Positions 1,679-41,880 of a DNA stretch of 55,954 bases are shown one piece after another. The notes beneath the pieces are model-generated. The model had not been told where the DNA came from and ran no database searches. It worked only from the letters and a program-made list of their open reading frames with translations. Positions within the stretch are counted from its first letter, which is position 1, and each line of letters begins with the position of its first letter. A program made the translations under genes and the position numbers. The stretch spans positions 1-55,954 of the IMG/VR virus record IMGVR_UViG_3300032047_000018; one strand, given 5' to 3'. This DNA comes from a virus. Its lineage: Duplodnaviria; Caudoviricetes.

Positions 1679-3406
1679 ATGCAGACAACGGAGATCAATG
1701 GATTCTTGATTGATGAGTTCAATCAATATGGTCTAGAAGAAGGGAAGAAGCAAGGCACATGCCCGCTTTGTTCTCACACTAGACAACCCAAAAATCAGAA
1801 AGCAAAATGTGCTTCTTACGATTGGGAACGGGGTCTCGGTACATGTCACAATTGTAATTCTTCTTTTCAGTTACACACTTATCAACGTAAAGGCGCAAGC
1901 GAAAAAGAATACGTAAGACCTACACCTCCAGACCCAGAATATCCGGGTAGAGATTACGGGTTAGATGATAAAGTAACTGAATGGTTTAAAACAAGAGGTA
2001 TATCACCAGAGACCTTGCTTGATCTAAAAGTTGGGCAAGGCTCTGAGTATATGCCACAAACCGGCAAGTCCGAGAACACAATAAAGTTCAATTATTTCAT
2101 GGGCGATCAACTTATTAATGTTAAGTATCGCGATGGAAGAAAGAACTTTAAATTATATAAGGGTGCTGAAAAAGTATTCTATAATATAAATAGCATAGTA
2201 GGTTATGAATATTGTATTATAACCGAAGGCGAAATGGATGTGTTAGCTTTACATGAGGCGGGTATACCTAATAGTATATCAGTTCCTAACGGAGCAACAC
2301 TTAATAGTAACAACTTAGATTATTTAGACAATTGTATAGATTATTTCGAAGACAAAGAAAAAGTTATTTTAGCAGTCGATTCAGACGAAGCTGGACAAGC
2401 ACTGCAACAGGAACTTGTTAGAAGACTTGGAGCAGAGGTTTGCTATTTAGCCACCTTCGATGATTGCAAAGACGCTAATGAGTATTTAATAAAGTATGGC
2501 AAAGAAAAACTTTCGCAAAGAATTACACAAGCAAGACCCGTACCTCTTGAGAATGTTACTACGTTCCGAGATATTGAGGATGAGGTTACTGACTTTGTTC
2601 GTAATGGCTTTAAGAAAGGATATCAAGTTGGCTTATCCAATTTTGATGACATATTTAGTACTTATACCGGCCAATTCATTACTGTCACTGGCATACCTAG
2701 TTCCGGTAAATCTGACTTCGTTGACCAAATGGTTGTCGGATATAATCGTAACTACAACTGGCGAACGGCTTTTGCGTCACCAGAAAACGCGCCTACGTAT
2801 TTACACGCTCACAAGCTAATGCGTAAAACGTGGGAAGGAATGCCTACGTCAGATGATATACATACAGATAAATGGAATACAGTAGCGGATCACGTTAATG
2901 ATAATTATTTCTTTATTGATATGGAGCGTTACACATTAGAATCTGTATTGCGTAAAGGTGCTGAGCTTGTTAAGCGTAAAGGAATTAAATGTTTAGTCAT
3001 TGATCCGTTTAATAAGATTAGAGATGTAGATTGCAAGACTGAAGATGTTAATAGATACACTATGGAGTATCTAACCAAGATTGAAATGTTTGCTAAAAAA
3101 TATGATGTACTAGTATTTATTGTAGCTCACCCTACTAAGATGTATAAAGGCAGTGATGGTCAAATTGAAGAGCCAACAATGTATAACATTAAAGGTGGTG
3201 GCGAATGGTATGATGCTAGTTATCACGGCATATTAGTTCATAGAAACTATGAAGAAAAAACCGTTAAAGCAAAAGTTCTTAAAGTTAAGTTTCAAAATCT
3301 TGGCGAGAACGGAGCTGAAGCACATTTTAAATGGGAACATAAGTCGGGATGCTTTATACCACATGAACAAATGAAAATAGCAGATGAGGCTATGCCTTGG
3401 GAATAA
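1679..3406 (+). CDS. DNA primase-helicase (T7 gp4/Twinkle-like)
   Basis: Zn finger CPLC...CHNC, TOPRIM motifs TEGEMD and DSDEAG, SF4 helicase Walker A GIPSSGKS, plus VIDP and VAHP. Confidence 0.93.
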   Translation: MQTTEINGFLIDEFNQYGLEEGKKQGTCPLCSHTRQPKNQKAKCASYDWERGLGTCHNCNSSFQLHTYQRKGASEKEYVRPTPPDPEYPGRDYGLDDKVTEWFKTRGISPETLLDLKVGQGSEYMPQTGKSENTIKFNYFMGDQLINVKYRDGRKNFKLYKGAEKVFYNINSIVGYEYCIITEGEMDVLALHEAGIPNSISVPNGATLNSNNLDYLDNCIDYFEDKEKVILAVDSDEAGQALQQELVRRLGAEVCYLATFDDCKDANEYLIKYGKEKLSQRITQARPVPLENVTTFRDIEDEVTDFVRNGFKKGYQVGLSNFDDIFSTYTGQFITVTGIPSSGKSDFVDQMVVGYNRNYNWRTAFASPENAPTYLHAHKLMRKTWEGMPTSDDIHTDKWNTVADHVNDNYFFIDMERYTLESVLRKGAELVKRKGIKCLVIDPFNKIRDVDCKTEDVNRYTMEYLTKIEMFAKKYDVLVFIVAHPTKMYKGSDGQIEEPTMYNIKGGGEWYDASYHGILVHRNYEEKTVKAKVLKVKFQNLGENGAEAHFKWEHKSGCFIPHEQMKIADEAMPWE

Positions 3407-3684
3407 TGAAAAGCTTATATAGAAAAAAGAAAAACCACGCCTTACCATCCTATCTTCCAAACCAAGAAGAACAAAAGTGGTATAGATATTGTGTGCATAA
3501 CAATATAAGAATATCACCCTGGGGTATATTTAATGATCCTGATAACTGGTATATAAATATAAATATAGGGCCATATAAACGTGGTGAGAAACAAAACCTT
3601 TCACCAGAACCCTACGATAGAAAACAAATATGGAATAAATATTACGAATACTGTAAATATTATTATGATAAACGTAAACAATGA
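3406..3684 (+). CDS. Hypothetical protein
   Basis: ATG at 3406 is coupled to the helicase stop (TAATG). 92 aa, aromatic-rich. Confidence 0.7.
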   Translation: MKSLYRKKKNHALPSYLPNQEEQKWYRYCVHNNIRISPWGIFNDPDNWYININIGPYKRGEKQNLSPEPYDRKQIWNKYYEYCKYYYDKRKQ

Positions 3685-4492
3685 ATACAAACAACTCGTC
3701 GGTGGAATCCTTTACGGAGGCACTGATAAACAAGACCGAACTGGAACTGGGACGCTCTCTGTTTTTGGCAGAACGATTGAGCATAACATGCAACATTCAT
3801 TCCCTATACTTACAGCTAAACGAGTATCATTTAATGCAGCTAGGACTGAGCTCCTTTGGATCCTCAACGGACGCACAGACTTAAAGTATTTAGAAGATAA
3901 CGGTGTTAAGTATTGGCGACCAGATTATGAACGCTCTGGCCGAACTGATGAAACGCTTGGCCCAGTATACGGAAAGCAATGGCGAAACTTTAATGGTGTA
4001 GATCAACTGCATAAGCTAGTAAATGCTATACGTAATAATCCGCATAGTCGCAGATTATACGTTTCAGCTTGGAACCCGGCCGAGATGCCGGATATGGTAT
4101 TACCGCCATGTCATTATGGCTTTCAAGTTTACATTAACGACGGCTTTATGGACTTAGCTTGGCAACAACGATCGGCTGATGTTTTTCTTGGCCTGCCGTA
4201 CGATATTACAATGTATGGCTTATTACTTAGTTTATTGGCTAAAGGCGCTAATTTAACGCCCAGAAAGCTTATAGGCCAGCTTGGAGACTGTCATCTATAT
4301 AAAAATCATTTGGATCAAGCAGATGAATATTTAAATAGACCTAGCGTTGTTGCTAAACCCATAATTAAAATAAGCAATGGTATACATATAGATAACTATG
4401 GTGATTTATTTATACCTGGTAAAAACGATATAGAATTAATAAACTATAAACCCTTACCTGCTATTAAAGCAGAGTTAAGTGTTGGTAACTAA
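3665..4492 (+). CDS. thyA: Thymidylate synthase-family enzyme with Asp at the pyrimidine-specificity position (possible dCMP methylase)
   Basis: Motifs DRTGTGT, ELLW, GPVYGKQWR, SRR, PPCH, QRSADVFLGLPYD and GDCHLY. Likely start is ATG 3665 (MINVNNEYKQL). Confidence 0.92.
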   Translation: MINVNNEYKQLVGGILYGGTDKQDRTGTGTLSVFGRTIEHNMQHSFPILTAKRVSFNAARTELLWILNGRTDLKYLEDNGVKYWRPDYERSGRTDETLGPVYGKQWRNFNGVDQLHKLVNAIRNNPHSRRLYVSAWNPAEMPDMVLPPCHYGFQVYINDGFMDLAWQQRSADVFLGLPYDITMYGLLLSLLAKGANLTPRKLIGQLGDCHLYKNHLDQADEYLNRPSVVAKPIIKISNGIHIDNYGDLFIPGKNDIELINYKPLPAIKAELSVGN

Positions 4493-4500
4493 AAATAAAT

Positions 4501-5283
4501 ATGTACAACATTTATCACATTCCTGGTCAAAAAATCGGAGTTACACGTAATCTTAATAAAAGGGTTACGGAGGAACAAGGTTTCAGTCCAGACGAATACG
4601 AAGTTTTATTTACGAGTGAAGATATCGATGAGGTATCAGCGAAGGAAATAGAACTTCAACAGTCTTATGGCTATAGAGTAGATAGAAAATTATATAAACA
4701 ATTATTTAATAAAATGAAAATAAACCCAACAACTCAAACGAGTACATTTCCATGTCCGGTTAATAAACTTAAAGGACAACTTATGGATAACATAGGTTTT
4801 AAATGGAAAACACCACAAGGTTATAATTTTGAGATAACACATGAAACTATACCTTGGATCATGGCTAACGTGAGAGAGTCTATGTACGACTCTAACAGAA
4901 GTTATGTTTATAACAAAGCTTTTTACGAAGCATTTTATAATCCAAAACATAACCCTGATAAAGAAATTTGCGTAGCTAACAATTTAGATTGTGAAAGATT
5001 TGATCTAATACGAACTTGGGCGGCAGAACGAGGCATATACGATTCTGGCCATAAACATACACAGTATGTAAAACTTCAAGAAGAAGCTGGTGAACTAGCT
5101 AAAGCATTATTGGAAAATGATAAACCTGAAATTCAAGATGCTATTGGAGATATAGTTGTAGTATTAACTAATCTTGCACATTTAGAAGGATTAAGTATAG
5201 AAGATTGTATTGATGCAGCATATGCTGAAATAGTTGGTCGAACTGGTTCTATGGTTAATGGAACATTTGTAAAAGATAAATAA
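4501..5283 (+). CDS. mazG: Fusion of GIY-YIG-like N-terminal domain, unknown middle domain and MazG-like NTP pyrophosphohydrolase
   Basis: C-terminal KLQEEAGELAKA...DAIGDIVVVL is the MazG EExxE...D pattern. N-terminus is YNIYHIPGQKIGVTRNLNKR...KEIELQ. Confidence 0.8.
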   Translation: MYNIYHIPGQKIGVTRNLNKRVTEEQGFSPDEYEVLFTSEDIDEVSAKEIELQQSYGYRVDRKLYKQLFNKMKINPTTQTSTFPCPVNKLKGQLMDNIGFKWKTPQGYNFEITHETIPWIMANVRESMYDSNRSYVYNKAFYEAFYNPKHNPDKEICVANNLDCERFDLIRTWAAERGIYDSGHKHTQYVKLQEEAGELAKALLENDKPEIQDAIGDIVVVLTNLAHLEGLSIEDCIDAAYAEIVGRTGSMVNGTFVKDK

Positions 5284-5555
5284 TGAGAGATAAAATAATC
5301 GAGCAAGTTATTAATAAGATTAAGAAACGCTCAGATGTAGGCTATAAAAAATATGGCGTTACATTACAAGAAGACGATCAGTCATTAGAAATATGGCTAA
5401 CACATATCCAAGAAGAATTAATGGATGCTGTTAATTATATTGAAAAAGCAAAGGCTGTATTGTGCGATGAAATTGAAGAATGTATGCTTAAAAGAGCTAA
5501 CGAATTCAATGACAATATCTCAAACATCGATGTAAATGAGGAAGAGATATTATAA
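5283..5555 (+). CDS. Small all-alpha NTP-pyrophosphatase-like phage protein
   Basis: GYKKYG...WLTHIQEELMDAVNY with an EExxD acidic helix; coupled to mazG. Confidence 0.6.
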   Translation: MRDKIIEQVINKIKKRSDVGYKKYGVTLQEDDQSLEIWLTHIQEELMDAVNYIEKAKAVLCDEIEECMLKRANEFNDNISNIDVNEEEIL

Positions 5556-5991
5556 GAAAAAAAAGAGAGGTCCTGTTGTAAGTAAAAAAGTTACTTATGA
5601 CGGGATCAACTTTGCTTCTGGCCTTGAGCGATATATGTATATGGCTTTAAAAAAAGCTAAGGTTAGAGCTAAGTATGAAGGCGAGACGTTTGTTCTGCTA
5701 AATGGTTTTCATTTTGAAAACGAAGTTTATGAAAGACAATCTAATGGAAAAGGTGATTATAAAAATAGAGGCTGTAAGAGAATCTTACCTATTAAATATA
5801 CTCCTGATTTTATTGGTGATGATTTTATAATTGAAACTAAAGGTAGAGCAAACGAATCCTTCCCGATGCGATGGAAGTTATTTAAACAATTAGTTATGAA
5901 ACAATTTCCTAGTGTTACATTATATAAACCACAAAATCAAAAAGAATGCGACGAAACAATAAGCTTGATCCTGGACAAGAGAAAAGGATAG
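5536..5991 (+). CDS. T7 endonuclease I-like PD-(D/E)XK nuclease / Holliday junction resolvase
   Basis: Motifs FASGLE, YTPDF and IIETKG. Confidence 0.8.
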   Translation: MRKRYYKKKKRGPVVSKKVTYDGINFASGLERYMYMALKKAKVRAKYEGETFVLLNGFHFENEVYERQSNGKGDYKNRGCKRILPIKYTPDFIGDDFIIETKGRANESFPMRWKLFKQLVMKQFPSVTLYKPQNQKECDETISLILDKRKG

Positions 5992-6119
5992 CTAGACAAA
6001 AGTACGCTGAAAGGCAGATTGATAAGTGGGTTAAATGGAGCTGGGAAGTTAAAGGATATATTAAATTTAAAGACTTAGTTAACATACAAGAACGATACAA
6101 TATAAAAGTATATGGCTAA
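5946..6119 (+). CDS. Small hypothetical protein (57 aa, not in ORF track)
   Basis: MRRNNKLDPGQEKRIARQKYAERQIDKWVKWSW...KVYG fills the gap in an otherwise contiguous operon. Confidence 0.6.
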   Translation: MRRNNKLDPGQEKRIARQKYAERQIDKWVKWSWEVKGYIKFKDLVNIQERYNIKVYG

Positions 6120-6267
6120 AAAGAAAAAAGAAGAACGAGGCTGGGCCTTGTCTATAGGATTTTATCCTGGTATTTTAATCGGGATGAGAAGTTACGTAGA
6201 GACTGATTTTACTACGCACGTATTATATTTACCGCTAGTTGATCTAGCATTAGAAGTTGATAATTAA
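6112..6267 (+). CDS. Small hypothetical protein (51 aa, not in ORF track)
   Basis: MAKKKKEERGWALSIGFYPGILIGMRSY...LALEVDN; its stop overlaps the nrdB ATG (TAATG). Confidence 0.7.
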   Translation: MAKKKKEERGWALSIGFYPGILIGMRSYVETDFTTHVLYLPLVDLALEVDN

Positions 6268-7244
6268 TGGCAGCACCAATTTTTACAGAACGAATACCAT
6301 ACAAACCTTTTGAATATCCTGAGTATTATACAGAAGGCTGGTTAAAACAAGCTCAGGCATTTTGGTTACACACGGAAATACCTATGTCCGGTGATGTAAA
6401 AGACTGGAATGAAAAAATGACACCAGAAGAAAAGAATTTGGTAGGTAACATATTATTAGGTTTTGCACAAACAGAATGTGCAGTGTCGGATTACTGGACA
6501 CAAAAAGTCGTATCGTGGTTTCCTAAACATGAGATACAGCAAATGGCTATGATGTTCGGCTCGCAGGAAACAATACATGCTGTAGCTTATAGTTATTTAA
6601 ATGAAACACTTGGGCTTGAAGATTACGAGGCATTTTTACATGAACCAGCTACGGCTGCTCGTTTTGACAATCTCGTTGCATATGATGGCAATGATCCCGT
6701 GGGTATCGGAAAGTCATTGGCTGTTTTTTCTGCTTTCGCAGAAGGAGTATCTTTATATAGTGCTTTTGCAGTTCTTTATTCTTTTCAAATGCGTAATCTT
6801 CTTAAAGGTATTGGACAGCAAATGAAATGGTCTGTAAGAGATGAATCATTGCACAGCAAAATGGGTTGTCAATTGTTTAGACAAATGTGTTCACAAATAC
6901 CAGGATTAAAAGAAGAATGTAAAGCACACATATATGAAGCTGCTGTAACTATGCACAACGCGGAAATGACTTATATAAGTAAGCTATTTGAAATGGGAGA
7001 CATAGAGGGTATAAAAGAATATGATCTTAAACAATTTATTAAAAAACGTACAAATGATAAACTCAAAGAACTCGGCTACAACCCAACAGGATCAGACGAA
7101 TTCGGCTATGACCAAAAAGGAGTGGATGCTCTTTCTTGGTTCTATCATCTTACCGGCGGGCATACTCATACTGACTTTTTCGCGGTTAGGCCGACAGATT
7201 ATTCGAAAGCTAATGAAGGCGAAGACTTCGAAGACATCTGGTAA
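6267..7244 (+). CDS. nrdB: Class I ribonucleotide reductase beta subunit
   Basis: Motifs YKPFEYP, FW.HTE, ETIHAVAY, AEGVSLYSAF, RDESLH and C-terminal DFF...Y. Confidence 0.95.
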   Translation: MAAPIFTERIPYKPFEYPEYYTEGWLKQAQAFWLHTEIPMSGDVKDWNEKMTPEEKNLVGNILLGFAQTECAVSDYWTQKVVSWFPKHEIQQMAMMFGSQETIHAVAYSYLNETLGLEDYEAFLHEPATAARFDNLVAYDGNDPVGIGKSLAVFSAFAEGVSLYSAFAVLYSFQMRNLLKGIGQQMKWSVRDESLHSKMGCQLFRQMCSQIPGLKEECKAHIYEAAVTMHNAEMTYISKLFEMGDIEGIKEYDLKQFIKKRTNDKLKELGYNPTGSDEFGYDQKGVDALSWFYHLTGGHTHTDFFAVRPTDYSKANEGEDFEDIW

Positions 7245-7289
7245 CTGGGTAGAAATAACAGAAGAAGATATAATAAAAGATTTAATTAA

Positions 7290-7526
7290 ATGAAAGAATC
7301 AACATTAGTAAATATGAAACACGACATAGGCTCTGTGTTGGGTGGATTACAAAATACTATAAAAGAATTAGTAAGAATTAATACTTTGCAACAAGGCATG
7401 CTAGAAACAATTAAAAGAATGCCTGGCTACCAAGAAGCTATTGATAAACTATTAGACGAGCAGAGGGAAGAAGATGCTGTTAAGCAAGTTGCTGATATGG
7501 TAGAAAAAGAAATTGAAAATGAATAA
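7290..7526 (+). CDS. Hypothetical helical protein
   Basis: 78-aa ORF with an A-rich start context (TTTAATTAAATG); overlaps the next gene. Confidence 0.7.
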   Translation: MKESTLVNMKHDIGSVLGGLQNTIKELVRINTLQQGMLETIKRMPGYQEAIDKLLDEQREEDAVKQVADMVEKEIENE

Positions 7527-7821
7527 ATTTTTATGTTCAGGATGTGGAGCTTGTTGCTTCATGGCTGTAGACAAAGGCTTGATGCCAGACAGAGGCGATG
7601 GTGGTTGCGTAAACTTAGATGACGATATGTCGTGCAAGATATACGAAACCCGTCCTTGGTTTTGCAGAGTTGACGAATTGTTTACACGTATAAAGAAACA
7701 CAAACCACATCTTGATCAAAAAAAATGGAATATATGGAATACAAAACAATGCCATAAAATGATTGACGATAAGGGTTTTGATTCAAAATATAAAATAGAT
7801 TTAAATGAGTACGAGATATAA
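7519..7821 (+). CDS. YkgJ-like CxxCxxCC cysteine-cluster (Fe-S/Zn) protein
   Basis: Cys pattern CSGCGACC...CVNL...CKIYETRPWFCR...C. Confidence 0.85.
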   Translation: MNKFLCSGCGACCFMAVDKGLMPDRGDGGCVNLDDDMSCKIYETRPWFCRVDELFTRIKKHKPHLDQKKWNIWNTKQCHKMIDDKGFDSKYKIDLNEYEI

Positions 7822-8068
7822 ATTTTTAAAGCTTTTAGTTAAACAAAGAAAGCTTTTACCTATTGAAAGATTATCTAATAGGCTAGGATATATGGGTGCA
7901 GGATTTATGATGACAGCTCCTCATTTACTGCCTTCTAAAACAGGTATTGTAATATACATACTAGCAGGTTTGTTTTGTATACCGCAAGTTTGGGTTGCAA
8001 AGCAATGGAATTTAGTATTAATAAACTTAAATGTAATAATTGCATACGCGATATTATTTTCAAAGTGA
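7805..8068 (+). CDS. Small membrane protein, about 3 TM helices
   Basis: Basic N-terminus followed by three hydrophobic segments; contains IPQVW. Confidence 0.7.
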   Translation: MSTRYKFLKLLVKQRKLLPIERLSNRLGYMGAGFMMTAPHLLPSKTGIVIYILAGLFCIPQVWVAKQWNLVLINLNVIIAYAILFSK

Positions 8069-8235
8069 AAAAGAATATAATTAAATGTAGTCAATGCGAC
8101 GCAGAGTTTCCTCACGGCCATGCTTATAGAATGCATTGGGAGGAAGCCCACTTAGACGACGCGATAGAATACGCAAAAAAACACGGAAAAACTTATGTGG
8201 AACAAAGAGTGGAAAAAAGGTATAGATTACCCTAG
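8065..8235 (+). CDS. Small C2H2 zinc-finger protein
   Basis: GTG start overlaps the upstream TGA (GTGA). Sequence CSQC-x12-H-x4-H. Confidence 0.65.
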   Translation: MKKNIIKCSQCDAEFPHGHAYRMHWEEAHLDDAIEYAKKHGKTYVEQRVEKRYRLP

Positions 8236-9913
8236 TTGGGGTGACAATGATGTTTATAAAAAAACAATATCAGGCGGTTATTTGTTTCAAGGAGAATCTC
8301 CTAAGGAAGCTTATACACGTGTAGCTACACAAGTAGCGAGGCGTTTATATAAGCCTGAAATGGCTGAAACATTTTTTGAATACATATGGAAGGGCTGGCT
8401 ATGTTTAGCCTCCCCTGTGCTATCTAATACAGGTCTAGATCGAGGTTTGCCAATATCATGCTTTGGCATAGATGTTGCAGATAGCATTTTTGACATAGGC
8501 ACAAAAAATTTAGAGATGATGCTACTCGCAAAACACGGCGGCGGAGTTGGTATCGGAGTAAATCAAATTAGACCCGCCGGAGCAAATATAACAGGAAATG
8601 GAACATCAGACGGAGTCGTACCATTCTGTAAGATCTACGATTCAACAATCCTTGCTACAAATCAAGGATCAGTTAGAAGGGGAGCTGCATCGGTCAATAT
8701 CAACATTGAACACGACGATTTTGAAGAGTGGCTTGAAATACGAGAACCTAAAGGAGATATCAACAGACAAAGCCTTAACTTACATCAATGCGCAGTTGTT
8801 GGTGATAAGTTTATGCGAAAACTTAAACAAGGAGATGCAGGAGCTAGGGTTAAATGGAGTAAATTACTTAGAAAACGAAAAGCCACTGGCGAGCCGTATA
8901 TCTTGTTTAAAGGAAACGTTAATAAAAACAATCCAAGCGCATACAAAGACAACGGATTAAAAGTTCATATGACAAACATATGTAGTGAAATAACATTACA
9001 CACAGATGAATCACACAGTTTTGTTTGTTGCTTGTCTAGTTTAAATTTAGCAAAATATGAAGAATGGAAAAATACAAATATTATATATGACAGCATCTGG
9101 TTTCTTGATGGAGTCCTGGAAGAATTTATACAAAGGGCTAAAGGAAAAGTTGGTTTTGCCAACTCAGTTAGAAGCGCAGAAAAGGGCCGTGCGCTTGGGC
9201 TGGGAGTATTGGGATGGCACACCTATCTCCAAGAGAAAGGAATCCCGTTTGAAGGATTACTTGCTCAGTTTGAGACTCGCAGAATCTTTTCTCAGATTAA
9301 AATTGAGTCTGAACAAGCTAGCATGGATCTGGCAAAAATTTACGGAGAGCCTTTATGGTGTGCTGGTACTGGCTTGCGCAATACTCATCTTCGTGCTATT
9401 GCACCTACTGTTAGCAACAGCAAACTTAGTGGAAATGTTTCGCCAGGCATTGAGCCGTGGGCTGCAAATGTTTTCACGGAGCAATCAGCCAAAGGAACGT
9501 TTATAAGAAAAAATCCTACGTTATTAAAACTTTTAAGAAAACATAAAATTAATACGGAAGAAATATGGGATAAGATCTTGGCTGACGGAGGTTCGGTTCA
9601 AGGCATCAAAGAACTCGATGCTATACGCATGCAGCATGATGTACCCGCTAAAGACGTATTTAAAACGTTTAAGGAAATAAATCAATTAGAATTAGTAAAC
9701 CAAGCCGGCCTCCGCCAGCAATATATAGATCAATCAGTTAGTTTGAATTTAGCATTCCCTAGTGAAGCTACACCAAAATGGTTGAACAAAGTTCATATTG
9801 ATGCGTGGGAAAAAGGAGTGAAGACTTTATATTATACGAGAACAGAGAGTGTTCTTCGTGGAGATATTGCGGCTGCAGCAATGGATGAAAATTGCGCGGC
9901 ATGTGATGGTTAG
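8195..9913 (+). CDS. nrdA: Class I ribonucleotide reductase alpha subunit (short, no ATP cone)
   Basis: Motifs ASPVLSN, PISCF, GGGVG, TNICSEI, APTVS, DQSVSLN, KTLYY and C-terminal CAACDG. Confidence 0.96.
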   Translation: MWNKEWKKGIDYPSWGDNDVYKKTISGGYLFQGESPKEAYTRVATQVARRLYKPEMAETFFEYIWKGWLCLASPVLSNTGLDRGLPISCFGIDVADSIFDIGTKNLEMMLLAKHGGGVGIGVNQIRPAGANITGNGTSDGVVPFCKIYDSTILATNQGSVRRGAASVNINIEHDDFEEWLEIREPKGDINRQSLNLHQCAVVGDKFMRKLKQGDAGARVKWSKLLRKRKATGEPYILFKGNVNKNNPSAYKDNGLKVHMTNICSEITLHTDESHSFVCCLSSLNLAKYEEWKNTNIIYDSIWFLDGVLEEFIQRAKGKVGFANSVRSAEKGRALGLGVLGWHTYLQEKGIPFEGLLAQFETRRIFSQIKIESEQASMDLAKIYGEPLWCAGTGLRNTHLRAIAPTVSNSKLSGNVSPGIEPWAANVFTEQSAKGTFIRKNPTLLKLLRKHKINTEEIWDKILADGGSVQGIKELDAIRMQHDVPAKDVFKTFKEINQLELVNQAGLRQQYIDQSVSLNLAFPSEATPKWLNKVHIDAWEKGVKTLYYTRTESVLRGDIAAAAMDENCAACDG

Positions 9914-10395: not shown

Positions 10396-10557
10396 TCATT
10401 TCTTTTTTTCTTTTTTAACATCTCTCCACTTTGCTACTGTATATCCTATAGTAACAAGTAAAAGAATTACTTTAAGGCCGTCTTCTATTTGGGTAAATGT
10501 AGTTACACCCACTGTGCCTGCGTTTAAAACGTATAATTTTAGATCCTCGATAGTCAT
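10396..10557 (-). CDS. Putative holin (53 aa, not in ORF track)
   Basis: MTIEDLKLYVLNAGTVGVTTFTQIEDGLKVILLLVTIGYTVAKWRDVKKEKKK: TM helix plus basic tail, directly upstream of the endolysin. Confidence 0.65.
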   Translation of the reverse strand: MTIEDLKLYVLNAGTVGVTTFTQIEDGLKVILLLVTIGYTVAKWRDVKKEKKK

Positions 10558-13500
10558 TATTTATTTTTTGATTTTAACCATTCAATTTTTTCTTGAATAG
10601 ATTTGCCTTTTTTCCAAGTATAATATTCAATAAAATATTCGCCTGATAAATTAATTTCTAAATTCATTAAAGTTTCTTTATTTACTCTTCTTGTTTCTGC
10701 TGCTTTTTCTTTACTTAATACTTTTCTTTCTTCTTTCGCTGTGACTTTAATTAAATCACCTTCTTCATTTTTAGCATTAACATCCCAAGTTCTCCACCCT
10801 AATCCTAATGCAATTCTTTGGTACGCTGTATTTCTTTCGTCTAATGCTTCAGATACAGCTTGCAGCTCTACCACTAATCTGTCTAACGGCAAATTAAGAA
10901 ATGCTGATGTTAAGTTACCTATAACGTTATAAGTAGGGCTAATATTAAATCTACCATCAATTGTTACATCAAATCCTCTTTCGGCAATAACATCTTTTTC
11001 GTATACGTCTTTTGTTTGAATAGCAGAGTATACTTTTCTAACCTTTGATCCAATAGGCGGCGAAACATTTAACAATTCAATTAAAGTATTTACATGATCT
11101 GCTTTAAAAGATCCTTTAGCCGCTTCAAATTGGTATCTTTGTATTGCATTTTTTAATGTTGAAACAACAGCTCCACCTAACCCAGACCCTCTTAATATGG
11201 TGTCTATCATGTTATTTAATATTCGCCTAGATTTTTTATCTAAATCATCTTCGTCGGCTTCTTCGTCGTCAAACCCTGGAATTAAAGCAAATAAAGCGTT
11301 GGACAATCCGCTGAAAATAAGATTTTGCACAAATCCATAATACATAATCTTTGAGACGTTTGTTTTAAAATCTCCACGGCCGTTTATAATATCCTGGCCG
11401 GCTTTTTTAATTAAACGAGTGTATTGCATAGGAGTGTTCTGGAAAGCTAATATAAGACGTCCTAAATGGCTTGATTGCTGTGATGAAATTAGCATAGGAT
11501 CACCCGATTGCTGTGTTTCATCCGATATTTTAGTAAAGTCTTGAAAAGCTTTTGCTTCAGCTTCAGCTTTAGACATGCCTTGCTTAACATAAGTTTTAGT
11601 TCTGTTAATTAAAAATGTAGCACCTCCACTAGCAATAGCCATACTATCCGCTATTTGTGTAGGAGTAAAACCTATTTTTAATAAATATGCAGTAATTGCC
11701 GAAACTTTATCTTTAGAATTTTTAGCTTGGTTAGCAATTTCTTGTTCTTGAACATCAGATCTTAAACCACCACGTCGTTGTTTTAATTTGTCAGAGTTAA
11801 ATATTTTTACCCATGTTTTCCAATACAACGGTTGGTTTGCAAACGCAGCCGCAGCATTCAATGGATTATTATCTGACCAATTAACAAAGTTTGTAAACGA
11901 AAGCATTTGTAAAAGAGCTGACCTTCTGTTAAAAAACATTATTGTACCTACCGAGTTGTTTACCCAGTTTAACCATTTGCTTTCCATAGATCCTACACTT
12001 CCAGGTCTGTTGCTACCGGATTTCATTCTACGAATACTATCTTTTAAAGCTTTTACATATAAAGTACCGTAGTTAGCTTCTAACTTAAGCATCATATTTG
12101 CATCAAATATATTATCTACATTTTCAATAAACTCTGCAAGATATTCTTTTCTGCTTATTGTTTGGGTCATATTATTTAAATCCTTTAATATGCTACCAAC
12201 ATCCCAAAACTCGCCCGGCTCTATCCATTCGTTATTTTTACCTACAAGCAATAAACCTTCTGCAAATTCTTTTAATTTATTATCCGCCTCTACAAAACTT
12301 AACAATTGAGCTTTGTCCCTTTTTGATAAACCAGGAATTTCATATCCCATTTTATTATAAAGATATATTCTTGCAGCCTGTTCATTGGTGTACTTTGTAC
12401 CGCCAATTGTCTTACCAAGCTTTCTTTTCATGCCTGCAGAATTTTTTAACAAAACTTTATATCCGTTTATAATATTTTGTCTTTCACTTTCAAGGGCAGC
12501 TACGCCTCTTGTGTAAGGATCAATTAAAGCTTTTTCAAAAAATGCTTGATCGGCTTCTCCTTGTTTGCCTTTACCAGCTAATGTATACGACGTTAGCCCT
12601 CTAAAGTCTTCAGCTGAATAAGGAACAAAGAATTTGTATTTACCTTTTTTAGCGCCTTCTCTTCTTGCAACTATCTGAGAATACACTGCTTCAGCGCTTA
12701 CACCTTTGTTACGCTGAATCATTTCATTCATAGTTTGATTCATTGATTTACTGAATCTTGCACGAGCTTGTTGAACTTTACCGTTTACATCAAAGACGTC
12801 TAATACATCTTTAACAGCTTTAACATTTTTCATTGCATCATCTACAAAGTAAAAATCGTTAAATCCTTCAGCAACTTTATTTATCATCCACCCAGCTTTA
12901 GCCGCTGGAGATCCGTTTTCAAGACCTACTATATTTTCTAATGGTATAGTTAAACCTAATTCTTTTAAAAATGTATGTATAGCTATAGCGGATTGCTGAG
13001 GTCTCGCTGTTAATACAAATATATTTTTGTTGCCAAACTTTTTAATTGCCTTTTTAAGCCTTGGGGCTAATGGCCCAGGTGTTCCTTCTACAACTTTATT
13101 GAATTCGCTAAAATCAAATGATGCGCCTTGCTCAGATAATATTTCATCCTGAGCCGCAAATTCTGCGGGTGTAATTTTCTTAACAGTACCATCAGGCATA
13201 GTAACAATAATATTACTTTTACTGAATGCTAACGTGTCGTCAAAATCATAAACACTAATTCCTTTTGATGGCTTACGAGAATAACTAAGTCTACGCGCTT
13301 TATTAAGAGCTTTATCAGCTATTTGTGCTTCGGTTGATTTAGTGGCTGCTTGATCCGATGTAAGTTTATTAAACGCTACAAACTCTTCACCAATAAGATC
13401 GCCTTTGTTTTCGCCTTCAATTACTTCAATGGGCACCATATTTTTATACCCATACATTACTTCGTCGTAATATCTATTTGTAGCGGGTTGTGTTAGGTAA

Positions 13501-16500
13501 TCCCACTTACCCATATTGTTTTGTCTAAATACGTTTAGATCATTATCCATTTCAATAGGAATAATAGCTACTTTGTATTTATCAAATAAAACATCTAAAT
13601 CTATTTTTTGTAATTTAAAAAAGTGAGCGGTTAAATATCTAGCCATTGCATCGGTAGATATCAAATGTTCATATCTGTTTAAACCATTTTCAAACCCATC
13701 AGCAAGATAATATTTTACTGCAGCCGCAGCTTTAAGCATGGAATTCATATTGCTTTTTAATGACATCATTGTCATTATCCAATCAACAGTTGTTCCGTTC
13801 TTTTTTACATAACCTAACCAATCAAGTAATTCTTCTTTAGCTTCAATAGAAGCATCCAATCTTTCGCTAGCTTCATCTACGAATACTTCTTTAGTTATGT
13901 TTTGCTGGCCACCTTTAAGTTTTTTAGTAGCGGCCTGTTTAGGTGTTGTAAGTTTTTCTTGTATGTTTTCTGCTTTGCCGTTTGAAGTAACGGTTGTAAT
14001 TTTAAAACCGCTTCCGGTTTGCACACCACTGAATACAATGTTTTTCCCTGCGTCTTTAAAAGCAGTATTCATCATGTTCATTAAATCTTCATTACCTCTT
14101 GTAATTTGATTTCTTTTCCCTTTTTCAAAAGCGTCCGCGCCAGCAGTAGCCATATGCCCTTGCTGCCACTTTAAAAATCTTATAGCAGTATTTTTATTTA
14201 AAGTCTGTATATATTTGCTTACAAGCTCTCTGTGTTTATTAACATAATCAGGAGTCCTAAACAATTCTGTTTGAGAGTTAATATCTAATTTTTTAAGACT
14301 AACACCAGATAAAAATAATACTGTTTTGCTTGTCATCATTTCTGATGCTGCAATTTCATCTAACAATACTCTACTAAAATTAACATTCTCAGTTCTATCA
14401 CTTTTTGTTAAAAATCTTTTTATAACATTAACAGACCTTCTTGAAAATTGCTCTATTTCTTTTGGGGTTAATCCTAAGTCTAAATCTTTCATAACCCCTT
14501 GCACGCGCGCGTAGGTTATATTATCACCCTCTTTAAACCTATTCTCTAATGCTTTTAATATCTTGGCTTCATTAGCGGCTACTGTGTTGGCAATATTTTT
14601 AGATAAACTAAATTTAGCGGGCCTTCCGTCTACTTGCTTCACAACTTCACCAACATAGTTCTCCATTAACTGTAAACCTAGTGCTGCTTGGTTTTTTTCA
14701 AAGGCATCTTTTATAGGGCCGCCAAATTCTATTTGATCTCTGAATATTTCTAATCCAATTTCAGATCCTATCTCAGCAGCTAAAGCTTCTTTCCTGCCTC
14801 TTATAGGCGTTCCATCGGGCTTGGTTATAAAATCTGCAAATTCTGCATCATTAACACTTGCTGACTTTCTTCTTCTAACTAACTGAGGACCAGACGTTTG
14901 GCCTTGTTGATCAGTAGATGTTTTTGCTCGATCTATTTTTTTACCAACCCAACCAGGGTAGTTTATAAAATTAGGAATAAATATAAAATCACCATTAGAA
15001 TCTTTTTTTCTTTTTCCGTCTTGGTCTGTTTCATATCTTCCTCCAACAGATTTTTGAATAACGACTGGTATACCGCCATCAACTGTACCTTTTTTCTTAT
15101 TGTCTTTACCCATTAAAAATGTAAGAGTAGAGTTTTCAATAATAGCTTTTTTATTTTTTATAGACCATTTTCTTAAAGCTCTATCCGCTTTGCCACCCAT
15201 TTCTTTTTTAAGAATGATATCAGCTTGAGTCTTTAAATCATTTTTAATTTCATTAATTAAATCAGTTTTAGTTTTATTAATTGTACCAACTTGATCTAAT
15301 CTAGATTTTAAAATTCTCGTTGCAGACAAAACAGAATTTGCAACATCTTTAAATGCTTTAGGTGAAATTATTTTACTTTTAGTAAATGCCCTATATGTTG
15401 GCTTATCGACTTTTTTAGTAGGCCCAGATTCATCAGCAATTTCATTTGTAGATTCATCTGTTCTTTTTGTAAAAGTTTTCTTTTCAATTTTTCTAACTCC
15501 ACTCAAATATTTTCTTTCAAGATAAGAATTTATCCAAGCGTCTAAATCTTGGTTTTGAGAAGGATTAAAATTATTGATATGATTAAGAGTTTCTAAAGTA
15601 GCTTCCATCATAGCGTCTTCTTTAGCAGCAGCTAGTGCCTGAGCATCACCTTCAAAAGTTGCCGTATTAAACATTGAAGATTTGGAATTCTGTATAGATT
15701 CTAACACTGGTATAAATGGTGCTATAATTTTGCCCATAGCTTGTTGGCCTCTAGGTGTTTTTAAAAACGGATCTTTAGATGTTTGCCACTGTGGATTGTC
15801 TTCTACAATTTTATTTACTAGCGCTTTTCTTTTTGCTGGTGGTAATTTACTTTGGCTTTTTTTAGCCCTTTCATTTTTAGCAATAGTACTTAGCTCTCCT
15901 TCAAATGTTACATTAGTTGGTGACCCTTGGTGAGCAGCTTTATTAAAGTCTTCAATAAACATTGCCGCATATTCTCCTTGATTTTCTTTTAATTTTAATG
16001 AAGGAAATTTGGTACCAATAACTCTATTGTACCATAGCCGCATAGCGTTTGTTGTACTTGGTTTTAATTGTGCACCATCGGCAATAACATCAGACATTGC
16101 ATTTAAAGCTTCTGAATAATATTCATCACCTTTAGCTTGATCGGCTTCTTCAAGGTAGCTTTGATTTAATCTGTATTGCACTTTAGCAAACATGTCTTTA
16201 TCGTTTTGTTCCAGCCAATCCAATAGTTCTTTACCCGCATCATTTTCATTAATACCGTTTTGTTCTGCATAAGCATGCAAAACTTCATGAGCAAATATAC
16301 CTATTCTTTTATTTTTAATCGATGCATCTTTATCTACAAGTATTACACCATTTAAATAAACTCCCTCGAAGCTACCCTCATTTAAAGCCCTAGCCATTTC
16401 TATTATTTCAGCAGCTGTAGCTCCAGCGTTTTTGTATGCCTCTAATATAGCTTCATTTTTACCTTCACCTTCAAACGTCTGTATATCTATAGGCGTCTTA

Positions 16501-41067: not shown

Positions 41068-41342
41068 TATTTAGATCTTCTTTCAGCAAACCCACCAAAA
41101 GTTGTTTGTTCGACTTCTTCTTTTGGTTTGTTTTCAATTATTCTTTGCTCCTCATCAATTCTGCTTAATATTTCAAAAGCATCAAATATAGCCAGCTTTT
41201 TTGTGGCTGCTGCATTTTTTAATCTGTCAGCTGAGATATCATCGTCCGAATCTACAATAGCTTCTTTTGCTACTTTAATTAATTCCTCAACTGCTTTGTG
41301 CCCAGCCTGGATTATATTCTTCTTCGTCTCCTTGATATTCAT
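41067..41342 (-). CDS. Putative terminase small subunit
   Basis: Small helical protein directly upstream of and coupled to terL. Likely start is ATG 41342 (MNIKETKK). Confidence 0.6.
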   Translation of the reverse strand: MNIKETKKNIIQAGHKAVEELIKVAKEAIVDSDDDISADRLKNAAATKKLAIFDAFEILSRIDEEQRIIENKPKEEVEQTTFGGFAERRSK

Positions 41343-41880
41343 ATTTAATTGTAATTGCATTCATGGGAACTCGGTATAACCTTTGCCCTTCTATTATAAA
41401 CTCGTATTCTGAATTTGGTTTAAAACCAACAAGCGTTTCTACTTCAATTTGTTCATTGCCGTATTTTACAATGCCGATTAATGGCCTTTCTTTTTCTATG
41501 GAAATTTCGTCCGTTTCTTTTATAGGCATTACAAAAACAAAACCTTCTAGTGCTTTCCACTCATTATTTTGTTTGTAAGCATATATTTGATCAGGCTGCA
41601 CTAAATAAATATCCTCTTCAAAATAGTTTTTACTATTCTTTTCTTTACCACGTATATCTCTAAATCTTCTAAATATATTGTGATGTACAATAACCTCTAA
41701 CCCTTCTTTAATTTCGTTATACATTCTTGCGCGAGGCAATCCTATAACAATACCAATTCTTTGAGTATATTGATGATTTTGTAATTCAGTGTTTAATAGT
41801 AACTCGTTACCTTCTATCTCTTTTTTTCCTGTTGTCCTACTGCCCTTCGGTTTTACCAGGTAATTGAATACACTCTGCAT
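41287..41880 (-). CDS. Tandem GroES-like (double cpn10 domain) protein
   Basis: Two similar halves: NYLVKP...RIGIVIGLP...EGLEVIVHH and GFVFVMP...LIGIVKYG...VETLVGFKPNSEYEFIIEGQRLYRV. Confidence 0.6.
   Translation of the reverse strand: MQSVFNYLVKPKGSRTTGKKEIEGNELLLNTELQNHQYTQRIGIVIGLPRARMYNEIKEGLEVIVHHNIFRRFRDIRGKEKNSKNYFEEDIYLVQPDQIYAYKQNNEWKALEGFVFVMPIKETDEISIEKERPLIGIVKYGNEQIEVETLVGFKPNSEYEFIIEGQRLYRVPMNAITIKYEYQGDEEEYNPGWAQSS

What the first reader, a model, noticed from the sequence alone, without database searches (positions are those of the whole stretch)
3665..4492. Thymidylate synthase with Asp at the Asn177 position: candidate dCMP methylase
Seen: the motif reads QRSADVFLGLPY-D-ITMY (GAT at 4202-4204), where E. 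coli ThyA has QRSCDVFLGLPF-N-IASY. The spacing from the catalytic Cys (C149 to D180) is 31 residues, the same as C146 to N177. Known: this Asn selects dUMP; E. coli N177D and L. casei N229D shift activity to dCMP, and T4 dCMP hydroxymethylase has Asp here. The rest of the protein looks like canonical ThyA rather than a divergent hydroxymethylase. Inference: the phage makes 5-methyl-dCMP (or hm-dCMP) before replication and packages cytosine-modified DNA, hidden under a routine thyA annotation.
Basis: partly seen in the sequence, partly recalled or inferred. Interest (0 to 1): 0.8.

Follow-up and report, generated by a model that had tools for sequence, protein, structure and literature searches.

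The report
Phage dCMP methylase labelled thymidylate synthase
An uncultured marine phage carries a thymidylate synthase look-alike whose base-selecting residue is switched from Asn to Asp, so it most likely methylates dCMP to make 5-methylcytosine nucleotides; this trick is already known from other phages.

Summary
Observation confirmed. ORF 3665-4492 (+) encodes a 275-aa ThyA-family protein (PF00303, E 1e-82; 44% identical to E. coli ThyA). Cys149 and Asp180 align with E. coli C146 and N177. The GAT codon at 4202-4204 also stands in contigs of four independent runs.

Asp is fixed in 194 of 194 distinct homologues of the clade (60-99% identity). All also keep Leu143, Asp169, His147, Glu58 and Tyr94. 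By the published residue code (N177D = dCMP; Leu143 = methyl, not hydroxymethyl; Asp169 = not 5-hydroxy), the predicted product is 5-methyl-dCMP.

In 79 of 80 related loci the same neighbour gene is present. It fuses a GIY-YIG-like domain to a MazG-type NTP pyrophosphatase. This fits the thymidylate-synthase/PRA-PH pairing reported for cytosine-modified viromes.

The kind is known from Xp12, PaMx74 and MetaGPA viromes, and this scan has met the same phage family before.

Two differences stand out. The active site is otherwise canonical. Four near-complete relatives lack DNA polymerase A/B, dCMP deaminase, DHFR and ThyX; the two scanned also lack a P-loop kinase motif. The step from 5-methyl-dCMP into DNA, or to dTMP, would therefore need host enzymes and is unproven.

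Verdict: new member of a known kind, modest interest.

The parts
3665..4492 (+). ThyA-family ORF (275 aa plus stop), predicted dCMP C5-methyltransferase (5-methyl-dCMP synthase)
   Evidence: PF00303 E 1.2e-82. Best solved relative 6auj, E 2.3e-66. 44% identity to E. coli ThyA. It is the only PF00303 match in each of four near-complete relatives.
4202..4204 (+). GAT codon for Asp180, the E. coli Asn177 position (pyrimidine specificity)
   Evidence: Asp in 194 of 194 clade sequences. No other letter at this place in contigs of 4 runs.
4109..4111 (+). TGT codon for the catalytic Cys149 (E. coli C146), followed by His150 (H147)
   Evidence: Cys and His are invariant in 194 of 194.
4100..4102 (+). 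TTA codon for Leu146 (E. coli L143), the position reported to separate methyl from hydroxymethyl products
   Evidence: Alignment. Leu in 194 of 194. T4 gp42 has Asp here. The code comes from passages of PMC13326640.
4501..5283 (+). 260-aa fusion: GIY-YIG-like domain (residues 1-63), a middle domain of unknown fold (about 77-147) and a C-terminal MazG-type all-alpha NTP pyrophosphatase (about 164-245). Candidate dCTP-clearing, dCMP-supplying partner.
   Evidence: C-terminal domain: PF01503 30.4 bits and PF03819 27.3 bits, both over cut-off; PHROG MazG-like families; PDB 1vmg; Foldseek rows 1vmg, S-2L MazG-like enzyme, DCTPP1, all with E above 0.001.

N-terminal domain: VIA Z 5.8 to I-TevI, 4.5 to PD-T4-3, 4.4 to UvrC, 4.0 to T4 EndoII; sub-threshold Pfam hits MUG113 and T5orf172.

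The gene starts 9 bases after the ThyA-like stop. An ORF whose best window match is this gene is present in 79 of 80 related loci; it lies directly after the ThyA-like gene in the loci whose coordinates I listed.
5283..5555 (+). Conserved 90-aa ORF of unknown function following the fusion gene
   Evidence: Best-hit homologue in 72 of 80 loci. Only unknown-function PHROGs. No Pfam, PDB, hhalign or Atlas assignment.
6267..7244 (+). Ribonucleotide reductase small subunit (same nucleotide-supply block)
   Evidence: PF00268 E 3.6e-56.
8195..9913 (+). Ribonucleotide reductase large subunit (same nucleotide-supply block)
   Evidence: PF02867 E 7.8e-92 and PF00317.

Best explanation
The gene encodes a thymidylate-synthase-fold enzyme that has been re-aimed from dUMP to dCMP by a single change, Asp in place of the uracil-selecting Asn. 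Everything else needed for the normal reaction is kept.

Inferred mechanism:
- Cys149 attacks C6 of dCMP.
- The one-carbon unit of 5,10-methylene-tetrahydrofolate is added at C5.
- Because Leu146 (E. coli L143) still shuts water out, hydride transfer from the folate gives a methyl group.
- The products are 5-methyl-dCMP and dihydrofolate.

The neighbouring MazG-type pyrophosphatase probably turns dCTP into dCMP. That would both feed the methylase and drain the unmodified competitor. The phage RNR supplies deoxynucleotides.

5-methyl-dCMP is then phosphorylated by host kinases and built into phage DNA by the host replisome, since this phage family has no polymerase of its own. The result would be DNA in which 5-methylcytosine replaces some or all cytosine and so resists restriction.

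Shown: the sequence features, their fixation in the clade and the gene pairing.

Inferred: the substrate, the product, the pyrophosphatase's specificity, the host kinase step and the modified virion DNA.
For: 1. Family and catalytic set. PF00303 E 1e-82. R21, E58, W80, Y94, R126, R127, C146, H147, Q165, R166, S167, D169, H207 and Y209 are all conserved against E. coli ThyA and invariant in the clade: 193-194 of 194 for R21 (one sequence gapped there), 194 of 194 for the rest.

2. Asp at position 177 in 194 of 194 clade sequences spanning 60-99% identity. The clade is one branch (support 97). Its two nearest representatives also have Asp (support 95).

3. Published residue code, as read in the papers. 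N177D switches TS to dCMP methylation, and Asp marks TS genes of cytosine-modified virome contigs (PMC8670742, section 11). L143 hydrophobic versus Asp/Glu goes with methyl versus hydroxymethyl. D169N marks 5-hydroxy-dCMP synthases (PMC13326640, passages). The window protein has D177, L143 and D169.

4. Experimental precedent. The Xp12 TS homologue and 5 of 7 virome Asp-type TS genes gave 5mdC in E. coli when co-expressed with T4 gp1 kinase (bioRxiv 10.1101/2024.12.05.627091, passages).

5. Context. The adjacent gene carries a MazG/PRA-PH domain whose acidic residues E194, E195, E198, E210, D213 and D217 are invariant in 32 homologues. A homologue of this gene is present in 79 of 80 loci. PRA-PH (PF01503) is reported to co-occur with TS on modified contigs and is among the top neighbours in the deaminase study. 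PaMx74 also has a pyrophosphohydrolase gene next to its Asp-type thyA.

6. No second ThyA-family gene and no ThyX in the window or in four near-complete relatives.
Against: - No assay and no modification-sensitive data. All runs are held as Illumina contigs.
- No phage dNMP kinase. No PF02223 match in the window. The only credible Walker A motif in the window and in complete relatives G001 and G003 is that of the primase-helicase. The published in vivo assays always added a phage kinase, so host kinases may not accept 5-methyl-dCMP.
- No dCMP deaminase, DHFR or DNA polymerase A/B, unlike the Xp12/PaMx74 cassette.
- The enzyme is much closer to true ThyA (44%) than to the PaMx74 enzyme (29%). 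It keeps His147, the second position that separated modified from unmodified contigs in MetaGPA. PaMx74 has Pro there, and 5 of 15 Asp-type representatives lack His.
- 2 of 7 tested virome Asp-type enzymes gave no 5mdC.
- An AT-rich phage (36% G+C) with RNR next to a TS gene is also the ordinary picture of dTTP supply.
- The MazG domain's substrate cannot be read from sequence, and it shows no similarity to T4 gp56 dCTPase.
- The window is only 87% complete.
Confidence: 0.6

Rival explanations
1. 5-methyl-dCMP is made but serves as a route to thymidylate, not as a DNA base. dCTP is cut to dCMP by the MazG domain and methylated by this enzyme. A host dCMP deaminase then turns 5-methyl-dCMP into dTMP. 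This would feed an AT-rich genome from the cytosine pool, and virion DNA would carry ordinary C.
For: - Xp12-infected cells make thymidylate from the methylated cytosine nucleotide (the review PMC8543423 lists Kuo et al. 1982, 'A new thymidylate biosynthesis'; the bioRxiv discussion gives 5mdCTP to dTTP).
- No phage kinase to carry 5-methyl-dCMP towards DNA.
- The genome is 36% G+C.
- This is the only TS-family gene in the family, and there is no ThyX.
Against: - No deaminase in the window or in four near-complete relatives, so the route would rest wholly on an untested host enzyme.
- An ordinary Asn-type TS plus the same host deaminase would give dTMP just as well, so this does not explain why Asp is fixed in 194 of 194 sequences.
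- In the published cases the deaminase is phage-encoded and accompanies full 5mC replacement.
Confidence: 0.15
2. It is still an ordinary thymidylate synthase. In this sequence background Asp180 is tolerated and dUMP remains the substrate.
For: - Every other active-site residue is canonical, including His147, Gln165 and Asp205.
- It passes the NCBIfam equivalog TIGR03284.
- It sits in a typical RNR-TS block.
- The W83-to-Asp change and the longer C-terminus are not special: 53 of 134 Asn-type representatives also have Asp at position 83.
Against: - The one residue that differs is the one reported to exclude dCMP. N177D in E. coli and N229D in L. casei are reported to turn TS into a dCMP methylase (as cited in PMC8670742 and PMC13326640; I could not read the original papers).
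- Asp is the minority state among close TS representatives (15 of 150), yet it is strictly fixed in this clade.
- Natural Asp/Leu143 enzymes that were tested made 5mdC in 6 of 8 cases, counting Xp12.
Confidence: 0.12
3. It modifies dCMP but gives another C5 product, such as 5-hydroxymethyl-dCMP or 5-hydroxy-dCMP, as a base for later hypermodification.
For: - Asp177 is shared with T4 gp42 and with the 5-hydroxy-dCMP synthases.
- The residue code for products is a correlation, not a proof.
Against: - Leu143 is kept (T4 gp42 has Asp) and Asp169 is kept (5-hydroxy synthases have Asn), both in 194 of 194 sequences.
- No glycosyltransferase or other transferase family came up in the Pfam, PHROG or NCBIfam scans of the ORFs I submitted. 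Several small ORFs were never scanned.
Confidence: 0.05

Closest known systems
Deoxycytidylate C5-methyltransferase (5-methyl-dCMP synthase) of Xanthomonas phage Xp12 and its homologue in Pseudomonas phage PaMx74
   Same: ThyA fold. Asp at the N177 position, Leu at 143 and Asp at 169 (PaMx74 aligned). An NTP pyrophosphohydrolase gene lies next to it (PaMx74_53). The reported product is 5mdCMP and the DNA is fully 5mC.
   Different: Only 29% identical to the PaMx74 enzyme. PaMx74 has Pro147, Leu165 and His205 where the window protein keeps the canonical His, Gln and Asp. PaMx74 also carries dCMP deaminase, DHFR and a DNA polymerase; this family has none of them. I did not fetch the Xp12 sequence itself.
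[quoted passage not shown]
   Same: A canonical TS in which only the specificity Asn is Asp. The window protein looks like a natural version: 44% identical to E. coli ThyA, with all other residues within 6 A of C5 conserved or conservatively changed (A142V, C168A).
   Different: Natural, and fixed in a large phage clade (194 of 194). Kinetics unknown. The original papers were not read.
Asp-type thymidylate synthase genes of cytosine-modified virome contigs (MetaGPA; Yang et al. 2021, PMC8670742; follow-up bioRxiv 10.1101/2024.12.05.627091)
   Same: Environmental phage TS genes with Asp177 that co-occur with PRA-PH pyrophosphohydrolase domains. 5 of 7 tested made 5mdC.
   Different: Those tested were chosen for a neighbouring dCMP deaminase, which this family lacks. 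MetaGPA also flags position 147, which is canonical His here. Whether this family is in their data I could not check, because supplements are closed.
T4 gp42 dCMP hydroxymethylase
   Same: ThyA fold, catalytic Cys, Asp at the specificity position, and partnership with a dCTP-clearing pyrophosphatase (T4 gene 56, annotated).
   Different: gp42 has Asp at position 143, Thr at 147 and no C-terminal tail. The window's MazG domain shows no detectable similarity to gp56. T4 also has its own kinase and polymerase.
5-hydroxy-dCMP synthases (RB69 gp48, DLP3 gp80; PMC13326640)
   Same: ThyA homologues acting on dCMP, with Asp177.
   Different: They have L143E and the diagnostic D169N. The window protein has Leu and Asp.

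Membership tests
ThyA-type thymidylate synthase superfamily (PF00303 fold) | Significant match to the family profile over its whole length | tested here: met
   PF00303 277.5 bits, residues 7-273 on profile positions 2-266 of 266. 122 PDB sequences at E <= 0.001; the best 60 shown are all thymidylate synthases or DHFR-TS fusions by name, apart from one entry named ORF70.
ThyA-type thymidylate synthase superfamily (PF00303 fold) | Catalytic Cys146, phosphate-binding Arg21/126/127/166, and Glu58, Tyr94, Asp169, His207 | tested here: met
   All are aligned and identical to E. coli ThyA. Invariant in the clade: 194 of 194, except Arg21 at 193 with one sequence gapped.
Thymidylate synthase proper (dUMP to dTMP, EC 2.1.1.45) | Asn at the E. 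coli 177 position, which selects uracil and excludes cytosine | tested here: not met
   Asp180 (GAT 4202-4204). Asp in 194 of 194 clade sequences.
Thymidylate synthase proper (dUMP to dTMP, EC 2.1.1.45) | Makes dTMP from dUMP; complements a thyA-null strain | not testable with these tools
   Needs an enzyme assay or a genetic test.
Phage dCMP C5-methyltransferase (5-methyl-dCMP synthase, Xp12/PaMx74 type) | Asp at 177 together with a hydrophobic residue at 143 and Asp at 169 | tested here: met
   D177, L143 and D169 in the window protein and in 194 of 194 relatives. The criteria come from PMC13326640 and the bioRxiv paper.
Phage dCMP C5-methyltransferase (5-methyl-dCMP synthase, Xp12/PaMx74 type) | Product is 5-methyl-dCMP; virion DNA carries 5mC in place of C | not testable with these tools
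   The runs are held as Illumina contigs only. Palindrome statistics were uninformative.
Phage dCMP C5-methyltransferase (5-methyl-dCMP synthase, Xp12/PaMx74 type) | Neighbouring NTP pyrophosphohydrolase | tested here: met
   The MazG/PRA-PH domain gene starts 9 bases downstream. A homologue is present in 79 of 80 loci. PaMx74 has the same pairing.
Phage dCMP C5-methyltransferase (5-methyl-dCMP synthase, Xp12/PaMx74 type) | Rest of the cassette: dCMP/dCTP deaminase, DHFR, own DNA polymerase, dNMP kinase | tested here: not met
   PF00383, PF00186, PF00476 and PF00136 gave 0 matches in the window and in four relatives that are 97-100% complete. PF02223 gave 0 in the window. No kinase-like Walker A motif in the window, G001 or G003. 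A divergent kinase among the small unknown ORFs is not excluded.
dCMP hydroxymethylase (T4 gp42 type) | Acidic residue (Asp/Glu) at position 143, letting water reach the methylene intermediate | tested here: not met
   Leu146 aligns with L143, whereas T4 gp42 has Asp. Leu in 194 of 194.
5-hydroxy-dCMP synthase (RB69 gp48 type) | Asn in place of Asp169 | tested here: not met
   Asp172 aligns with D169. Asp in 194 of 194.
MazG-type all-alpha NTP pyrophosphatase (for the neighbour, residues about 164-245) | Profile match plus the acidic metal-binding motif (EExxE ... ExxD; motif recalled from memory) | tested here: met
   PF01503 and PF03819 over cut-off. E194, E195, E198, E210 and D213 are invariant in 32 sequences. 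Fold rows are all MazG-type, but with E above 0.001. Substrate not testable.
GIY-YIG nuclease superfamily (for the neighbour, residues 1-63) | Beta-beta-alpha-beta-alpha core with conserved Tyr, Arg and Glu | tested here: inconclusive
   The model has pLDDT 90.6. The top four VIA rows are all GIY-YIG nucleases, but Z is only 5.8-4.0. Pfam MUG113 and T5orf172 hit at E about 0.01, below cut-off. Y2, Y5, R21 and E49 are invariant. The second Tyr of the motif is Lys.

The most novel reading that the evidence does not exclude
A large, uncultured family of marine Flavobacteria-type podophages builds 5-methylcytosine DNA with a minimal kit: a natural 'N177D' ThyA plus a nuclease-like/MazG fusion. It has no polymerase, kinase or deaminase of its own. 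The host's CMP kinase and replicative polymerase would therefore be made to synthesise fully or partly 5mC-substituted DNA. The GIY-YIG-like domain might attack unmodified host DNA, as T4 EndoII does.
Probability: 0.3. Interest if true: 0.5.

Novelty: new member of a known kind. Interest (0 to 1): 0.3.

Why it matters
- If the prediction holds, a widespread marine phage family carries 5-methylcytosine DNA while being annotated as having an ordinary thymidylate synthase. At least 134 IMG/VR stretches encode a relative, and near-identical DNA stands in runs of 13 studies.
- It would be a natural counterpart of the classic N177D laboratory mutant.
- It is a test case for whether host kinases and the host replisome can carry a modified pyrimidine without phage helpers.
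- The principle itself is already published, so the gain is in breadth, not in kind.

Tried and rejected
- **Close relatives among deposited phages.** Megablast of 3000-9000 found none. tblastn of the protein matched 4126 records, all under 60% identity.
- **ThyA-family gene in relatives by large terminase.** None in MW202828.1, nor in one Elemovirus, Cellulophaga phages phi46:3 and phi38:1, or Tenacibaculum phage Gundel_1 (0 of 4). No cultured model was found.
- **Missing pathway genes in the unseen 13% of the genome.** The about 6 kb lying upstream in relatives holds a DNA ligase, a DenV-like glycosylase, a GP88-family protein, weak sigma-like and HTH hits and unknowns. It holds no kinase, deaminase or polymerase.
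- **Walker A and deaminase motif scans.** Only the primase-helicase motif looks real; the other matches lie in structural or overlapping frames.
- **MazG domain against T4 gp56 dCTPase.** hhalign probability 2%. Against PaMx74_53, BLASTP E 0.022 over 68 residues. Neither gives usable evidence of shared specificity.
- **ORF 5283-5555 as a second MazG-like protein (my recollection).** Not supported: hhalign probability 0.3%, no Pfam above noise, no PDB match, Atlas score 0.78.
No PDB match better than E 0.6 and none to a DHFR. No Pfam, PHROG or NCBIfam hit.
- **W83-to-Asp and the two-residue longer C-terminus as signs of altered folate handling.** Rejected for position 83, because 53 of 134 Asn-type representatives also have Asp there. 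The C-terminus was not pursued.
- **Palindrome avoidance as an indirect sign of protected DNA.** Observed/expected is 0.75-1.10 for all sixteen 4-mers and shows no trend with G+C content in 6-mers. Uninformative.
- **Read evidence for modification.** Not possible. All 24 listed runs are held as Logan contigs, and those with a library on record are Illumina. The RNA-library contigs that hold the gene (X3) do not show transcription, since DNA can be in such libraries.
- **Foldseek of the whole fusion model.** No match at E <= 0.001.
- **Host.** No tRNA genes. Two short contigs (1.1 and 3.0 kb) binned into a Bacteroidetes and a Flavobacteriales MAG carry 71%-identical copies. That is weak support only.
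- **Literature.** Searches listed no paper on this phage family. That is not proof that none exists, and supplementary tables of the MetaGPA papers could not be seen.
Full report
**What is there**

The window is one whole IMG/VR virus record of 55,954 bases. It has 36% G+C, is classed as linear, and CheckV estimates it at 87% complete.

ORF 3665-4492 on the + strand gives a 275-aa protein, P0001. It matches Pfam Thymidylat_synt end to end (277.5 bits, E 1.2e-82). It also matches many solved thymidylate synthases (best 6auj, E 2.3e-66) and is 44% identical to E. coli K-12 ThyA.

The motif is QQRSADVFLGLPYDITMY. Cys149 (TGT 4109-4111) and Asp180 (GAT 4202-4204) fall in the E. coli C146 and N177 columns, 31 residues apart.

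Contigs of four runs from four studies cover the codon and none reads another letter there.

**Is the Asp meaningful?**

- The 120 closest proteins in the large metagenomic collection (72-99% identity) all have Asp.
- A scan of IMG/VR found 134 stretches encoding a relative. I kept the best 80 loci (60-75% identity).
- Pooled and made non-redundant, 194 of 194 sequences have Asp at position 177.
- All 194 also keep E58, W80, Y94, R126, R127, L143, C146, H147, Q165, R166, S167, D169, G173, D205, H207 and Y209. R21 is kept in 193; one sequence is gapped there.
- Outside the clade, the 150 best 50%-identity cluster representatives (37-54% identity) are 134 Asn, 15 Asp and 1 Ser by alignment. A cruder motif count gave 129, 15 and 1, with 5 unmatched.
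- On a FastTree of 170 rows the clade is one branch (support 97). Its two nearest representatives also carry Asp (support 95), and the next one carries Asn.
- The Asn/Asp state changes at least 12 times on that tree, and at least 4 times if only well-supported branches count. The tree is weakly resolved (75 of 167 inner branches open). I read it only as saying that Asp has arisen more than once among canonical-looking ThyA enzymes.

**What the residues predict**

Three papers give a working code.

- Yang et al. 2021 (PMC8670742; I read section 11 and passages). The ThyA domain was the family most associated with cytosine-modified virome contigs. Positions 177 and 147 were the most discriminating, with Asp177 on modified contigs. 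They cite Hardy and Nalivaika 1992 and Liu and Santi 1992 for N177D/N229D turning TS into a dCMP methylase. I could not read those originals.
- Lee et al. 2026 (PMC13326640; abstract and passages). A bulky hydrophobic residue at 143 goes with methyl products and Asp/Glu with hydroxymethyl products. D169N marks the newly found 5-hydroxy-dCMP synthases.
- The bioRxiv paper 10.1101/2024.12.05.627091 (passages). The Xp12 homologue and 5 of 7 virome Asp-type enzymes produced 5mdC in E. coli when a T4 dNMP kinase was co-expressed. Xp12 and PaMx74 are said to replace C entirely by 5mC.

The window protein has D177, L143 and D169. T4 gp42 has Asp at 143, and PaMx74 has the same D/L/D triplet as the window. 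The predicted product is therefore 5-methyl-dCMP, not the hydroxymethyl or hydroxy form.

**How it differs from the known methylases**

It is only 29% identical to the PaMx74 enzyme. It keeps His147, Gln165 and Asp205, where PaMx74 has Pro, Leu and His. Among the 15 Asp-type representatives, 10 keep His147 and 5 do not; all 134 Asn-type ones keep it.

It therefore looks like a natural version of the engineered single mutant.

I first suspected that the change of W83 to Asp was special. It is common in ordinary enzymes, in 53 of 134. NCBIfam's equivalog model TIGR03284 is passed (257.5 against 108.35 bits), so pipelines will name the gene thymidylate synthase.

**Neighbourhood**

The gene order on the + strand is:
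- ERF-type recombinase (57-434, cut by the contig end);
- PDDEXK-like nuclease (434-1162);
- primase-helicase (1679-3406);
- a small unknown ORF (3397-3684);
- the ThyA homologue (3665-4492);
- a 260-aa fusion protein (4501-5283);
- an unknown 90-aa ORF (5283-5555);
- DUF1064 (5536-5991);
- the RNR small subunit (6267-7244) and large subunit (8195-9913).

The primase-helicase label for 1679-3406 rests on my reading of its sequence and its Walker A motif; I did not scan this ORF against a family library.

In the 80 related loci, an ORF whose best window match is the fusion gene is present in 79. Where I listed coordinates, it lies directly after the ThyA homologue.

The C-terminal part of the fusion is a MazG/PRA-PH all-alpha NTP pyrophosphatase:
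- PF01503 and PF03819 are over cut-off, with PHROG MazG-like families.
- PDB 1vmg matches at E 8e-08 with a 32-sequence profile.
- Fold rows are 1vmg, the cyanophage S-2L MazG-like enzyme and mouse/human dCTPase, though none reaches E 0.001.
- The acidic residues E194, E195, E198, E210, D213 and D217 are invariant.

MetaGPA reports PRA-PH co-occurring with the TS domain on modified contigs. PaMx74 has a pyrophosphohydrolase gene beside its Asp-type thyA. This supports, but does not prove, a dCTP-to-dCMP role.

Residues 1-63 of the fusion fold as beta-beta-alpha-beta-alpha (model pLDDT 90.6). Its four best structural matches are all GIY-YIG nucleases:
- I-TevI: Z 5.8, rmsd 3.2, 61 residues aligned;
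- the 5hmC-specific PD-T4-3: Z 4.5;
- UvrC: Z 4.4;
- T4 EndoII: Z 4.0.

Sub-threshold Pfam hits go to MUG113 and T5orf172, which I recall belong to the same clan. These Z values are modest, so I treat the domain as GIY-YIG-like only.

**What is missing**

I looked for the rest of the Xp12-type pathway.

- The window has no match to dCMP deaminase (PF00383) or thymidylate kinase (PF02223).
- Because the window is incomplete, I also used four relatives rated 97-100% complete, two of them with terminal repeats.
- None of these five records has DNA polymerase A or B, ThyX or DHFR. None of the four relatives has the deaminase.
- Each relative has exactly one ThyA-family match.
- Motif scans of the window and of complete relatives G001 and G003 show a credible Walker A motif only in the primase-helicase.
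- The region missing from the window holds, in relatives, a ligase, a DenV-like glycosylase, a GP88-family protein and weak sigma-like and HTH proteins.

This family therefore appears to replicate with the host polymerase. It has no recognisable kinase for 5-methyl-dCMP. That is the main gap in the story, because the published in vivo assays always supplied a phage kinase.

**Mechanism and rivals**

My best reading has confidence 0.6. It is a dCMP C5-methyltransferase working with the neighbouring pyrophosphatase, and host enzymes carry 5-methyl-dCMP into phage DNA.

- Rival 1 (0.15): the same enzyme activity, but 5-methyl-dCMP is deaminated by a host enzyme to dTMP. This echoes the thymidylate route described for Xp12, and the DNA would stay unmodified.
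- Rival 2 (0.12): an ordinary dTMP synthase that tolerates Asp.
- Rival 3 (0.05): another C5 product.

Nothing available here can see DNA modification. The 24 listed runs are held as contigs, and those with a library on record are Illumina. Palindrome statistics were flat.

**Who is the phage?**

The large terminase is 62% identical to that of an uncultured podovirus genome. It is 31-43% identical to those of Flavobacterium (Elemovirus), Cellulophaga and Tenacibaculum podophages; a Maribacter phage was also among the 87 matching records, though not listed. Two short MAG contigs labelled Bacteroidetes and Flavobacteriales carry 71%-identical copies of the gene. A marine Flavobacteriia host is therefore likely but not shown.

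None of the five terminase relatives I checked has a ThyA-family gene. No deposited phage has a homologue above 60% identity, so I found no cultured model. Near-identical DNA stands in marine, seawater and viral metagenome runs of 13 studies.

**Novelty**

The kind is known. Earlier notes of this scan (by sequence) describe the same or sister phages with the same reading: e1-5359370 shares 22 of 71 words, and e1-5932015 and e1-4035604 are also close. My own tests agree with them.

- the residue-by-residue test in 194 sequences;
- the read-level check of the codon;
- the conserved GIY-YIG-like/MazG fusion partner;
- the systematic absence of polymerase, deaminase, DHFR and ThyX in near-complete genomes, and of a kinase motif in the two scanned.

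I rate it a new member of a known kind, with interest 0.3.

Noticed in passing
window 4501-4690 (residues 1-63 of the 260-aa ORF 4501-5283): The N-terminal domain of the MazG fusion looks like a minimal GIY-YIG nuclease domain. Its top four structural matches are I-TevI, PD-T4-3, UvrC and T4 EndoII at Z 5.8-4.0. Y2, Y5, R21 and E49 are invariant. I have not seen a GIY-YIG-like/MazG fusion next to an Asp-type ThyA described; I recall none, and my literature searches did not target it. Its role is unknown.
   Followed up: partly
window whole; relatives G001-G004: This roughly 56-66 kb podophage family has a primase-helicase, an ERF recombinase, a PDDEXK nuclease, RNR and (in relatives) a ligase. 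It has no detectable DNA polymerase A or B, so it presumably uses the host replisome.
   Followed up: partly
window 46668-48275 (-) and 41287-41880 (-): The phage encodes a GroEL-type chaperonin (PF00118, E 1e-58) and a GroES-like co-chaperonin (PHROG 13932).
   Followed up: no
window 10557-19313 (-): A 2918-aa ORF with no PHROG match at all. It is conserved at 64% identity in relative G001 (2940 aa). It lies at the end of the structural block and its function is unknown.
   Followed up: no
window 3397-3684 (+): A 95-aa ORF (TTG start) that overlaps the ThyA start by 20 bases. It is conserved in 46 of 80 loci and has no family, PDB or DfrB-type DHFR similarity.
   Followed up: partly
window 5283-5555 (+): A 90-aa ORF conserved in 72 of 80 loci directly after the MazG fusion. 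It hits only unknown-function PHROGs. My hunch that it is a second NTP pyrophosphatase found no support.
   Followed up: yes
window ends (1-57 and 55337-55954); relatives L002, L006, L017, L024: The record is about 87% complete. In relatives, about 6 kb of early genes lie upstream of the ERF gene and are absent here: a DNA ligase, a DenV-like pyrimidine-dimer glycosylase, GP88, and weak sigma-like and HTH proteins. The ERF ORF at 57-434 is shorter than in relatives (125 against about 180 aa).
   Followed up: partly
window 33633-35129 (-): The major capsid candidate has a weak Pfam hit to the crAss-type capsid family (E 0.006, below cut-off) and a strong PHROG structural match. This hints at a distant link to crAss-like Bacteroidota phages.
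   Followed up: no
L101 and L102 (genome contigs): Two short contigs (1.1 and 3.0 kb) binned into a Bacteroidetes and a Flavobacteriales MAG carry 71%-identical copies of the Asp-type gene. They are probably phage fragments binned with the host.
   Followed up: no
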